NCBI RefSeq assembly: GCF_044647545.1
Contig: NZ_CP172818.1
Strand: one strand, 5' to 3'
Length of the DNA stretch: 64,000 nucleotides
Source of the DNA: Escherichia coli
GTDB lineage: Bacteria; Pseudomonadota; Gammaproteobacteria; Enterobacterales; Enterobacteriaceae
In this document: positions 1 through 41,692 of the stretch, one piece after another
Position numbering within the stretch: the stretch's first letter is position 1
Layout: every line of letters starts with the position of its first letter
Position numbers and translations under genes: made by a program
The notes under the pieces: generated by a model
Seen by the model: only the letters and a program-made list of their open reading frames with translations
What the model was told of the DNA's origin: nothing
Databases searched by the model: none

Positions 1-1476
<1,476 letters not shown>

Positions 1477-1564
1477 TCATTCCAAAAAGTTAAGGACGTG
1501 GCTTGTCAGACGACGGATGAAGCAAGAGACGATCGCCGCAAAGGCGATGCGATAGCAGATTAAC

Positions 1565-1675
1565 TCTTGTTCCCTTCGCAGGTATTAGCCTGATCAGGTT
1601 CCGCGGATCCCGAATAAACGGTCTCAGCCAGTTAAGGCACTCCGACAAGAAATTAGCCCCGCAAACGGGGCGTTG
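1565..1675 (-). ncRNA. TPP (thi-box) riboswitch in the thiC leader
   Basis: Reverse complement contains GGGGCTAAT...CGGAGTGCC...GCTGAGAC...AACCTGATCAGGCTAATACCTGCGAAGGGAAC, with the CTGAGA thi-box hallmark, directly upstream of the thiC start. Confidence 0.7.
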
Positions 1676-1705
1676 AATGTAAATTACGCGTTAACAGCGC
1701 AGAAC

Positions 1706-2182
1706 TCAAGCAGGATGTTTGACGCGGGCGGCGTCAAGCACCAGCAGAATCAGCTTATCTTCCAGCACAAAGCGCGCTTCCAGGGCCTCGCCGATGTCAG
1801 ATAAAACCTGTTGAAACTCAAGGTAATTATCATGATCGATAGCGGTTTCCAGGCTGGAATCGTAGTAATCCATAATCTGTTGGGTATTGGCTTCGAGTTG
1901 TGGCCAAATCTTCGCGGCGCGTGCGAGTTGCCCATTGCCTTCCAGTTTATGAAGAATGCGCTCATAAATACTGAAATGTCCGGCAGACAAGTAATCGACC
2001 AGGCTCTGACAAAAATCATCAAGGGCTTTTTCGTTTAGCCTCATGTACGATTCTTTGCCAGGCTTAATGCCAACCAGATTGTAGTAAGCCACGAGCAGAT
2101 GCTTACGTACATGTAGCCAGCGATCAACCAGTTTGTTACTTCCTCTGACGCGCTCCGTCAGGTTATCGAGCTGGTTAAGCAT
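1706..2182 (-). CDS. rsd: Regulator of sigma D (anti-sigma-70 factor Rsd)
   Basis: 158-aa ORF MLNQLDNLTERVRGSNKLVDRWLHVRKHLL...; position upstream of thiC as in K-12. Confidence 0.9.
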   Translation of the reverse strand: MLNQLDNLTERVRGSNKLVDRWLHVRKHLLVAYYNLVGIKPGKESYMRLNEKALDDFCQSLVDYLSAGHFSIYERILHKLEGNGQLARAAKIWPQLEANTQQIMDYYDSSLETAIDHDNYLEFQQVLSDIGEALEARFVLEDKLILLVLDAARVKHPA

Positions 2183-13501: not shown

Positions 13502-15043
<1,542 letters not shown>

Positions 15044-15128
15044 CCTTAAAGAAGCGTACTTTGAAGTGCTCACACAGATTGTCTGATAGAAAGTGAAAAG
15101 CAAGGCGTCTTGCGAAGCAGACTGATAC

Positions 15129-15204
15129 GTCCCCTTCGTCTAGAGGCCCAGGACACCGCCCTTTCACGGCGGTAACAGGGGTTCGAATCCCCTAGGGGAC
15201 GCCA
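15129..15204 (+). tRNA. gltV: tRNA-Glu (UUC) in the 16S-23S spacer
   Basis: GTCCCCTTCGTCTAGAGGCCCAGGACACCGCCCTTTCACGGCGGTAACAGGGGTTCGAATCCCCTAGGGGACGCCA. Confidence 0.95.
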
Positions 15205-15399
15205 CTTGCTGGTTTGTGAGTGAAAGTCACCTGCCTTAATATCTCAAAACTCATCTTCGGGTGACGTTTGAGATATTTGCTCTTTAAAAATCTGGATCAA
15301 GCTGAAAATTGAAACACTGAATAGTCGAAAGATTATTCGTGAGTCTCTCAAATTTTCGCAACACGATGATGAATCGAAAGAAACATCTTCGGGTTGTGA

Positions 15400-18303
<2,904 letters not shown>

Positions 18304-18395
18304 ACAACGCCGAAGGTGTTTTGGCGGATTGAGAGAAGATTTTCAGCCTGATACAGATTAAATCAGAACGCAGAAGCGGTCTGATAAACAGAATT

Positions 18396-18515
18396 TGCCT
18401 GGCGGCCTTAGCGCGGTGGTCCCACCTGACCCCATGCCGAACTCAGAAGTGAAACGCCGTAGCGCCGATGGTAGTGTGGGGTCTCCCCATGCGAGAGTAG
18501 GGAACTGCCAGGCAT
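18396..18515 (+). rRNA. rrfE: 5S ribosomal RNA
   Basis: TGCCTGGCGGCCTTAGCGCGGTGGTCCCACCTGACCCCATGCCGAACTCAGAAGTGAAACGCCGTAGCGCCGATGGTAGTGTGGGGTCTCCCCATGCGAGAGTAGGGAACTGCCAGGCAT; 120 nt. Confidence 0.95.
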
Positions 18516-39189: not shown

Positions 39190-39446
39190 TTTTCAGCCTT
39201 GGCACAAGGGAAGAGCGGAAGACGGGTGGGCGCAGAGCGATACTTCGCTACTATTTTCACCCAGAAGTGCTCCACCACTTGCGAAACGCCCGACTGCGAA
39301 CGCTTCTGGTGACAACCCAGGGGATTCAGCCCCTGTAGCCGATGATGAACGTGGCCAGCCGTTCAATCACCTCGGCGATGCACCCCCTCAGGTGTTATCA
39401 CAGGACTGGCTCCTCCAACACCGTTACTTGGGCAACGCGCCTCTTC
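39190..39446 (-). ncRNA. Lysine riboswitch (L-box) in the lysC leader
   Basis: Reverse complement contains GAAGAGGCGCGTTGCCC...GGAGGAGCC...GGGGCTGAATCCCCTGGGTTGTCACCAGAAGCG...GGTGGAGCACTTCTGGGTG, matching L-box conserved elements. Confidence 0.7.
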
Positions 39447-39689
39447 TGGCCTGCGCTAGCGCAGGTAGTACATTTATAAATAAAGGGTGAGCGGGGCGGT
39501 TGTCAACGATGGGGTCATGCGGATTTTTCATCCACTCCTGGCGGTCAGTAGTTCAGCTAATAAATGCTTCGCTGCGCTAAGGGTTTACACTCAACATTAC
39601 GCTAACGGCACTAAAACCATCACATTTTTCTGTGACTGGCGCTACAATCTTCCAAAGTCACAATTCTCAAAATCAGAAGAGTATTGCTA

Positions 39690-41339: not shown

Positions 41340-41356
41340 TTAAAAACCTTAATAAC

Positions 41357-41386
41357 AATGCCGACTATAAGTCGGCATTGTTTTAT
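41357..41386 (+). terminator. Rho-independent terminator after pgi
   Basis: CAATGCCGAC-TATAA-GTCGGCATTG hairpin followed by TTTTA. Confidence 0.8.
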
Positions 41387-41692
41387 CAGATAAATCCTCT
41401 TGTCTGTTATTTAACGAAAATCATACCGTGAGGTTAATCCTAAAATAGATTTTTAATCGTGATTGATTTCGGAAAATACGCAGATTAATTACTTTTATTT
41501 TTATTTTAAGCTTATGATTTTTAATATTATTTATATATAAGTTGAAGCTTATATTTGATATTCATTCCAATTATCCTAAAACCCCATCGCTAATTCCCTG
41601 CGCCGTAATTCGCATGCTTTAGTTGTGTATACTCGATCCCGCCCGAAATGTTTTTGGGTAAATCTCCATTCATTCAATGAAGGGAAATTGTT

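What the first reader, a model, noticed from the sequence alone, without database searches (positions are those of the whole stretch)
1565..1675. TPP riboswitch upstream of thiC
Seen in sequence: thi-box motifs including CTGAGA on the minus strand between rsd and thiC. Known element, included because the six-frame ORF track cannot show it.
Basis: partly seen in the sequence, partly recalled or inferred. Interest (0 to 1): 0.15.

Follow-up and report, generated by a model that had tools for sequence, protein, structure and literature searches.

The report
Known E. coli thiC TPP riboswitch
This is the well-studied thiamine-pyrophosphate (TPP) riboswitch in the leader of the E. coli thiC operon, an RNA that senses the vitamin B1 cofactor and shuts off its own biosynthesis genes; it is real and correctly identified, but already annotated and ordinary.

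Summary
The finding is confirmed and is already known. Rfam RF00059 (TPP) matches window 1654..1554 on the minus strand over the full model (74.8 bits against a gathering score of 54.3; E 6.8e-13). This is the only TPP hit in the window and is exactly where RefSeq annotates "TPP riboswitch" between rsd and thiC. The window is E. coli chromosome, and 5420 of 5426 complete genomes carry the region. The aptamer is identical to MG1655, where this leader was dissected experimentally (Chauvier 2017). My own covariance model, aligned to 99 distinct aptamers from other species, gave strong covariation. It carries a switch strand that pairs either with the P1 5' strand (ON) or with the RBS/AUG (OFF), and 41 of 43 gammaproteobacterial thiC leaders keep this arrangement. 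Its upstream 20 nt (1656–1671) are not riboswitch but a GC hairpin resembling an rsd terminator. One side observation stays unresolved: the published +1 (window 1655) sits at the foot of that hairpin with no -10 element, while a conserved -35/-10-like block predicts a start near 1672–1675.

The parts
1554..1654 (-). TPP riboswitch aptamer as matched by Rfam RF00059 (full model 1-105); identical to the RefSeq 'riboswitch' feature
   Evidence: 74.8 bits, E 6.8e-13; L001 2647-2747 maps to window 1654..1554
1566..1649 (-). P1-bounded aptamer core. P1 is nt 7-11 (1649..1645) with nt 86-90 (1570..1566). The published extended P1 adds nt 1-5/6 (1655..1650) with nt 91-95 (1565..1561).
   Evidence: Pair list mapped from the cmscan alignment; all 5 P1 pairs show compensatory changes across 99 aptamers; extended P1 from PMC5234074
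1604..1644 (-). Pyrimidine-sensor arm: P2 (nt 12-15/49-52), P3 (nt 18-20/27-29), J3-2 with CUGAGA, and P3a (nt 36-37/44-45)
   Evidence: covariation in helices 2-4 with 92.5-97.9% of cells paired
1622..1627 (-). CUGAGA thi-box core (nt 29-34). G31 (window 1625) is the residue whose G31C mutation abolishes TPP-dependent repression.
   Evidence: PMC5234074; at least 90% conserved in the 116-sequence alignment
1573..1598 (-). Pyrophosphate-sensor arm P4/P5 (nt 58-83)
   Evidence: Invariant in my comparative set only because the search pattern fixed it; the one free P5 pair (nt 65:76) shows AU/CG/UA/GC exchange.
1516..1556 (-). C-rich, G-poor stretch of the expression platform (nt 100-140; 34% C, 22% G), the proposed Rho utilisation (rut) region. 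Contains a hairpin whose loop differs from MG1655 (UU vs CC at 1541-1542).
   Evidence: Composition; rut assignment from PMC5234074; strain difference
1502..1510 (-). Switch strand UCUGACAAG (nt 146-154), the 3' half of the anti-P1 stem. It pairs with nt 7-15 (1649..1641) in the ON state and with the start-codon region in the OFF state.
   Evidence: The MFE of the leader contains this 9-bp helix; conserved in 41 of 43 gammaproteobacterial thiC leaders; PMC5234074
1469..1507 (-). RBS-sequestering stem-loop (nt 149-162 with nt 173-187), formed when the aptamer/P1 is enforced. It buries the SD GGA (1483..1481) and the AUG.
   Evidence: Constrained fold; the best switch:RBS duplex covers the start codon in 42 of 43 leaders; PMC5234074
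1468..1473 (-). thiC start codon AUG (1473..1471 = nt 183-185) and the published pause / Rho-termination checkpoint (U184 = 1472, C187 = 1469, U188 = 1468)
   Evidence: Numbering check; PMC5234074
1..1473 (-). thiC coding sequence, first 491 codons only (it runs off the window start): the regulated gene
   Evidence: ThiC equivalog NF006763, 822.7 bits
1656..1671 (-). GC hairpin GCCCCG-UUUG-CGGGGC followed by UAAUUUCUU. Not part of the aptamer. It looks like the rsd intrinsic terminator and/or a 5' stem-loop of the thiC leader. It abuts the extended P1 with no gap.
   Evidence: a hairpin of different sequence sits at the same place in 10 Enterobacteriaceae genera
1681..1709 (-). Conserved promoter-like block: TTGAGT (1709..1704, overlapping the rsd stop codon), a 17-nt spacer, then TAATTT (1686..1681). 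Candidate native thiC promoter (inferred).
   Evidence: It falls below the threshold of the consensus scan.

Best explanation
Window 1655..1469 (minus strand) is the 5' leader of the E. coli thiCEFSGH operon and contains the thiC TPP riboswitch. The aptamer (nt 7-90 of the transcript) binds TPP between a pyrimidine-sensor arm (P2/P3 with CUGAGA) and a pyrophosphate-sensor arm (P4/P5), which closes helix P1. Without TPP, the P1/P2 5' strand (CUUGUCGGA, nt 7-15) pairs with a downstream switch strand (UCUGACAAG, nt 146-154) to form the anti-P1 stem. This leaves the Shine-Dalgarno sequence and AUG free, so thiC is transcribed and translated. With TPP bound during transcription, P1 holds the 5' strand. 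The switch strand then pairs with the GCU-AUG-UC start region in an RBS-sequestering stem that blocks initiation. RNA polymerase paused at the start codon (nt 184-187) is released by Rho, which loads on the C-rich nt 100-140 region. The decision is kinetic and is taken while the polymerase is between about nt 100 and nt 187. Shown here: the aptamer match, its covariation, the alternative pairings and their conservation. Taken from published experiments on the same sequence: TPP binding, repression, pausing and Rho termination.
For: The RF00059 full-length hit scores 74.8 bits against a gathering score of 54.3, E 6.8e-13. RefSeq annotates the same interval. 5420 of 5426 complete E. coli genomes hold the region at 95% identity or more. 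The aptamer is identical to MG1655. Across 99 distinct aptamers, 92.3% of cells are paired against 30-62% when the partners are slid; 16 of 23 pairs have changes on both sides; 0 of 500 shuffles reach the observed values. thiC lies directly downstream, and 65 of 120 pattern-matched aptamers from other species are also followed by thiC. The unconstrained MFE contains the 9-bp anti-P1 stem. The aptamer-enforced fold forms a stem over the SD and AUG that uses the same switch strand. 41 of 43 gammaproteobacterial thiC leaders keep a ..GACAAGC switch strand 25-48 nt before a GCU-AUG-UC start, and 42 of 43 best switch:RBS duplexes cover the start codon. No intrinsic terminator lies between the aptamer and the AUG. 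The published numbering maps base for base onto the window and is confirmed by oligo 1429AC. The experiments are in PMC5234074.
Against: Single-sequence thermodynamics is unremarkable: z = -0.5 for the leader and +0.1 for the aptamer. The computed equilibrium difference in RBS accessibility between the apo and aptamer-enforced ensembles is small (0.33 vs 0.28), although it goes the same way in 35 of 37 leaders. This does not contradict the model, because the published data show kinetic control and that anti-P1 is not the predominant fold in the full-length RNA. It does mean my folding cannot demonstrate the switch on its own. The platform differs from MG1655 at two loop nucleotides inside the rut region. 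Ligand binding, pausing and Rho dependence were not and cannot be tested with these tools.
Confidence: 0.96

Rival explanations
1. It is a TPP riboswitch that acts only on translation (SD/AUG sequestration), with any mRNA effect being secondary to loss of ribosomes.
For: The sequestering stem over the SD and AUG is predicted and conserved. E. coli riboswitches are classically described as translational.
Against: PMC5234074 reports TPP repression of a transcriptional fusion that has its own RBS, and in vitro Rho/NusG-dependent termination at U184/C187 without ribosomes. The C-rich, G-poor nt 100-140 region is present here.
Confidence: 0.03
2. It is a TPP riboswitch that works by an intrinsic terminator/antiterminator, as in Bacillus thi-box leaders or Neisseria meningitidis thiC.
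For: A hairpin at nt 105-126 is followed by a moderately U-rich run (CGUCUCUUGCUUC). Transcriptional TPP riboswitches upstream of thiC exist (PMC7237195; abstract).
Against: The terminator scan finds no site on the minus strand between the aptamer and the AUG. The U run is interrupted. Published termination maps to nt 184/187 and needs Rho.
Confidence: 0.01
3. The whole stated interval 1565-1675 is riboswitch, i.e. the 1656-1671 hairpin is a functional part of the sensor.
For: The hairpin abuts the extended P1 with zero spacing, and a hairpin is kept at this place in 10 enterobacterial genera.
Against: The Rfam model ends at 1654. The published functional RNA starts at 1655 and switches without the hairpin. 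Yersinia, Proteus, Photorhabdus and related genera have no hairpin there. The hairpin plus U-rich tail fits an rsd terminator.
Confidence: 0.05
4. It is a chance occurrence of thi-box-like motifs with no function.
For: CTGAGA alone occurs 8 times in the window, fewer than the 21.9 expected by chance. Fold z-scores are unremarkable.
Against: E 6.8e-13 over the full model; strong covariation; conserved position before thiC; published function.
Confidence: 0.001

Closest known systems
E. coli K-12 thiC (thiCEFSGH) TPP riboswitch (Winkler, Nahvi & Breaker 2002, from my own knowledge; Chauvier et al. 2017, PMC5234074)
   Same: It is the same element. The aptamer is 100% identical to MG1655. The position between rsd and thiC, the anti-P1 strand, the sequestering stem and the pause-site bases are all the same.
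   Different: Two nucleotides in a platform hairpin loop (nt 114-115, UU here vs CC in MG1655) and two bases in or beside the upstream hairpin (1666, 1672). No functional difference is expected.
E. coli thiM and thiB/tbpA TPP riboswitches (RF00059 members)
   Same: Same aptamer family and ligand. Both have anti-P1-type expression platforms with a pause near the start codon (PMC5234074; PMC11487190, abstract).
   Different: Different operons, and different sequences in J2-4/P5: my thiC-type pattern GAACCTGATCNGGNTAATACC was designed from remembered thiM and thiB sequences so as not to match them. The thiC platform is longer (about 95 nt) and is reported to modulate both rut accessibility and pausing.
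Neisseria meningitidis thiC TPP riboswitch (PMC7237195) and Bacillus-type thi-box leaders
   Same: A TPP aptamer upstream of thiC or other thiamine genes; OFF switch.
   Different: Those are described as transcriptional (intrinsic-terminator) switches. No intrinsic terminator is found here, and termination is Rho-dependent.

Membership tests
TPP riboswitch (THI element), Rfam RF00059 | Covariance-model score at or above the curated gathering threshold over the full model | tested here: met
   74.8 bits against 54.3; model positions 1-105 of 105; E 6.8e-13 for the window and 4.3e-15 locally
TPP riboswitch (THI element), Rfam RF00059 | P1 closing a junction with two arms (P2/P3 and P4/P5), supported by compensatory changes | tested here: met
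   23 pairs mapped, 22 of them standard pairs in E. coli. Across 99 aptamers 92.3% of cells are paired, 16 pairs have double changes, and slid controls give 30-62%. Caveats: the alignment was fitted to the model, and P4/P5 were fixed by the search pattern.
TPP riboswitch (THI element), Rfam RF00059 | Conserved ligand-pocket nucleotides: CUGAGA in J3-2 and the ACCUGAUC...GCG...AGGGA core | tested here: met
   CUGAGA at 1627..1622, and the core matches the consensus. CUGAGA is at least 90% conserved in 116 sequences even though it was not part of the search pattern.
TPP riboswitch (THI element), Rfam RF00059 | Location in the 5' leader of a thiamine biosynthesis or transport gene, on the same strand | tested here: met
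   80 nt upstream of the thiC ATG on the minus strand. 65 of 120 related aptamers are also followed by thiC.
TPP riboswitch (THI element), Rfam RF00059 | Direct, selective binding of TPP and ligand-dependent repression | not testable with these tools
   Reported for the identical aptamer sequence: Kswitch about 0.4 uM, and G31C abolishes repression (PMC5234074). Sequence identity to MG1655 was checked.
Rho-dependent / translational dual-acting thiC-type expression platform (Chauvier 2017) | A switch strand able to pair alternatively with the P1 5' strand (anti-P1) and with the RBS/AUG | tested here: met
   conserved in 41-42 of 43 gammaproteobacterial leaders
Rho-dependent / translational dual-acting thiC-type expression platform (Chauvier 2017) | TPP-enhanced pausing and Rho termination at the start codon, with a rut site at nt 100-140 | not testable with these tools
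   Only composition could be checked (34% C, 22% G), plus the absence of an intrinsic terminator. The experiments are in PMC5234074.
Rho-dependent / translational dual-acting thiC-type expression platform (Chauvier 2017) | Higher RBS accessibility in the apo state than in the bound state | tested here: inconclusive
   The equilibrium ensembles differ little (0.33 vs 0.28), though the direction is consistent in 35 of 37 leaders. This is what kinetic control would predict, but it is not a demonstration.

The most novel reading that the evidence does not exclude
The native thiC primary transcript may not start at the published +1 (window 1655 = NC_000913.3 4,196,281). It may instead start about 17-20 nt upstream (window ~1672-1675), from a conserved TTGAGT-17-TAATTT promoter that overlaps the rsd stop codon. 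The GC hairpin 1671..1656 would then be both the rsd terminator and a 5'-terminal stem-loop of the thiC leader, stacked directly on the extended P1. The primer-extension end at the hairpin foot would be a reverse-transcriptase stop or a processed end. In that case the riboswitch has so far been studied without its native 5' structure, and read-through from rsd could feed into the sensor.
Probability: 0.35. Interest if true: 0.3.

Novelty: already known. Interest (0 to 1): 0.08.

Why it matters
As a discovery it does not matter. This is one of the founding, best-characterised riboswitches, and the standard annotation pipeline already marks it at exactly these bases. The value is for the scan: it shows that the first-stage reader can recognise a structured RNA from raw sequence, with boundaries off by about 10-20 nt and with the regulatory half (the expression platform) missed. 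The only loose end with any research value is where the native thiC transcript really begins relative to the rsd terminator-like hairpin.

Tried and rejected
1) Single-sequence folding as evidence: z-scores of -0.5 for the leader and +0.1 for the aptamer are uninformative, so I replaced this with covariation.

2) A MAFFT alignment of 116 aptamers misaligned the variable P3 and clipped long-P3 sequences. I replaced it with a covariance-model alignment.

3) The consensus promoter scan found no sigma-70 site in 1300-2300. The conserved block found by comparison is below that scan's threshold.

4) The search for genome-wide TSS data for thiC failed. The Cappable-seq GTF is truncated in storage. 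The SMRT-Cappable-seq and Kim 2012 supplements have no thiC entry in the stored text. Thomason 2015 is not held. Literature searches for thiC + rsd + TSS, for thiCEFSGH promoter, and for 'thiCp' gave nothing useful.

5) An intrinsic terminator in the platform was considered and rejected.

6) A second ON-state helix (P1 3' strand nt 84-92 with CUCUUGC nt 129-137) is conserved in only about half of the leaders, so I did not include it in the core model.

7) The first frame used for the thiC translation was off by one; this was corrected.

Full report
OBSERVATION. The minus strand of window 1440-1760 reads, 5' to 3': the end of rsd, a GC hairpin, then ...UAAUUUCUUGUCGGAGUGCC...GGCUGAGACCG...GAACCUGAUCAGGCUAAUACCUGCGAAGGGAACAAGAG..., and about 95 nt later the thiC start. 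CTGAGA is at 1627..1622 on the minus strand. As a hexamer it means nothing, with 8 copies in the window against 21.9 expected. A permissive local search reproduces it and nothing else competes. The flanking ORFs are ThiC (first 491 aa; NCBIfam equivalog, 822.7 bits) and Rsd (218 bits).

ORIGIN AND ANNOTATION. The 421-nt region is present in 5420 of 5426 complete E. coli genomes at 95% identity or more. RefSeq annotates 'riboswitch - TPP riboswitch' at the bases that map to window 1654..1554, between rsd and thiC-thiE-thiF. Against MG1655 (window x = NC_000913.3 x + 4,194,626) the aptamer is identical. The only differences in 1400-1760 are one thiC codon position, two loop nucleotides in the platform (1541-1542), and two bases in or beside the upstream hairpin (1666, 1672).

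STRUCTURE TESTED BY COVARIATION. Single-sequence folding is not informative (z = -0.5 and +0.1). I therefore scanned one genome per species for the J2-4/P4/P5 core of this aptamer, with Ns at variable positions, and got 120 loci ranging from Enterobacterales to Firmicutes, Bacteroidota, Chloroflexota and Nitrospirota. MAFFT mis-handled the variable P3. So I built a covariance model from the E. coli-mapped Rfam structure and re-found and re-aligned 100 aptamers. On 99 distinct sequences, 92.3% of cells form standard pairs, against 30-62% when the 3' partners are slid by 1-3 columns. Sixteen of 23 pairs change on both sides, the covariation score is 0.441 against 0.127 in shuffles, and 0 of 500 shuffles reach any observed measure. 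All pairs of P1, P2, P3 and P3a covary. There are two caveats: six P4/P5 pairs never vary only because my pattern fixed them, and the alignment was fitted to the model. CUGAGA was not in the pattern, yet it is at least 90% conserved.

EXPRESSION PLATFORM AND MECHANISM. Chauvier et al. 2017 (PMC5234074) dissected this leader. Their numbering maps exactly if +1 is window 1655: C7, G16, G31 (in CUGAGA), G100, C158, U184, C187 and U188 all fall on the right bases. Their template oligo, lacUV5 joined to TAATTTCTTGTCGGAG, confirms this mapping. The unconstrained MFE of the leader contains the 9-bp anti-P1 stem (nt 7-15 with 146-154; window 1649..1641 with 1510..1502). When the aptamer pairs are enforced, the same downstream strand pairs instead with the start region: nt 149-157 with 177-187, plus UCC 160-162 with the SD GGA 173-175. 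This buries the SD and the AUG. The start context GCU-A-UGUC is thus a mimic of the P1 5' strand CUUGUC. Among 43 gammaproteobacterial thiC leaders from the scan, 41 keep a ..GACAAGC-type switch strand 25-48 nt before a GCU-AUG-UC start, and in 42 the best switch:RBS duplex covers the start codon; the two Thiomicrorhabdus leaders differ. No intrinsic terminator lies between the aptamer and the AUG, and nt 100-140 are C-rich and G-poor (34% C, 22% G). The paper shows TPP-dependent repression of both translational and transcriptional fusions, loss of regulation with G31C, Rho/NusG-dependent termination at U184/C187, a rut region at nt 100-140, and a co-transcriptional sensing window bounded by the pause at 187. 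My equilibrium calculation gives only a small accessibility difference (0.33 apo against 0.28 aptamer-enforced; 35 of 37 leaders in the same direction). This fits their finding that anti-P1 is not the dominant fold in full-length RNA and that control is kinetic, but it does not demonstrate the switch independently. To summarise the basis of each claim: the aptamer, its covariation, the alternative pairings and their conservation are shown here. Ligand binding, pausing and Rho dependence are taken from the literature on the identical aptamer.

BOUNDARIES. It omits the 3' strand of the extended P1 and the entire platform (1565..1469). It includes 1656-1671, which is a separate 6-bp GC hairpin followed by UAAUUUCUU and which the scan flags as terminator-like, 35 nt after the rsd stop codon.

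SIDE OBSERVATION (unresolved). The published +1, obtained by primer extension, is the first base 3' of that hairpin. No -10-like hexamer can be placed upstream of it in this strain or in MG1655. In 10 Enterobacteriaceae genera the hairpin sequence is different each time while the pairing is kept. That rules out a conserved -10 element inside the hairpin. What is conserved is cTTGAGT (overlapping the rsd stop codon), a 17-nt spacer, then TAATTT/TAAGTT/TAGTTT, and the hairpin begins 7-13 nt later. This predicts a start near window 1672-1675, which would make the hairpin a 5'-terminal stem-loop abutting the extended P1 with no gap. Yersinia, Proteus, Photorhabdus, Xenorhabdus, Moellerella and Arsenophonus instead have TTGTAG-17-TATACT ending 8-10 nt before CUUGUC, with no hairpin. 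The mechanistic in vitro work used lacUV5. A later reporter used 'the natural thiC promoter' without mapping it (PMC11143247). I could not reach any genome-wide TSS table covering this locus. So the 1655 end may be a true start from an unrecognisable promoter, a reverse-transcriptase stop, or a processed end.

VERDICT. The element is the known E. coli thiC TPP riboswitch, already annotated and mechanistically characterised. Novelty: none. Interest: low.

Noticed in passing
window 1656-1709 (minus strand): The published thiC +1 (window 1655) lies at the 3' foot of a GC hairpin and has no -10 element. A conserved TTGAGT-17-TAATTT block overlapping the rsd stop codon predicts a start near 1672-1675, which would put the hairpin at the 5' end of the thiC leader. 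The hairpin sequence varies between 10 enterobacterial genera but the pairing is kept.
   Followed up: partly
window 1519-1527 with 1564-1572 (minus strand; nt 129-137 with nt 84-92): In the apo MFE the P1 3' strand (AACAAGAGU) is itself sequestered by a CUCUUGCUU segment of the platform, giving a second ON-state helix. A comparable partner is present in about half of 37 leaders (Escherichia/Enterobacter group, Vibrio, Photobacterium) but not in Pectobacterium, Serratia or Brenneria.
   Followed up: partly
window 1541-1542: This strain has UU where MG1655 has CC in the loop of the platform hairpin (nt 114-115), inside the region proposed as the Rho loading site. That makes it slightly less C-rich.
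   Followed up: no
window 39257-39453 (minus strand): Lysine riboswitch (RF00168; 99.5 bits, E 3.1e-25), presumably the lysC leader. A second known riboswitch in the same window.
   Followed up: no
window 13502-18513 (plus strand): Complete rRNA operon: 16S (13502-15043), tRNA-Glu(UUC) (15129-15204), a StyR-44 match in the spacer (15282-15392), 23S (15400-18303) and 5S (18398-18513).
   Followed up: no
window 41347-41496 (minus); 49022-49092 and 53251-53321 (plus): Rfam hits to the enterobacterial sRNA STnc430 (72.6 bits) and two copies of naRNA4/CssrE (62.7 and 79.8 bits), which are REP-type repeats.
   Followed up: no
L105 (Enterobacter asburiae) and L035 (Serratia oryzae), about 120 nt upstream of the thiC aptamer: An ERIC-like repeat (...GAGCTTACATAAGTAAGTGACCGGGGTGA...; identified as ERIC from my own memory of the consensus) is inserted between rsd and the aptamer. 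It displaces the promoter-like block and hairpin seen in the other Enterobacteriaceae.
   Followed up: no
E. coli genome search with window 1380-1800: Two of the 5422 matching places are on records labelled as plasmids, and 6 of 5426 complete genomes have no match to the rsd-thiC leader region.
   Followed up: no
L003 and L027 (Thiomicrorhabdus): These have a thiC-linked aptamer of the same type but no GACAAGC switch strand or GCU-AUG-UC start context, so their expression platform must work differently.
   Followed up: no
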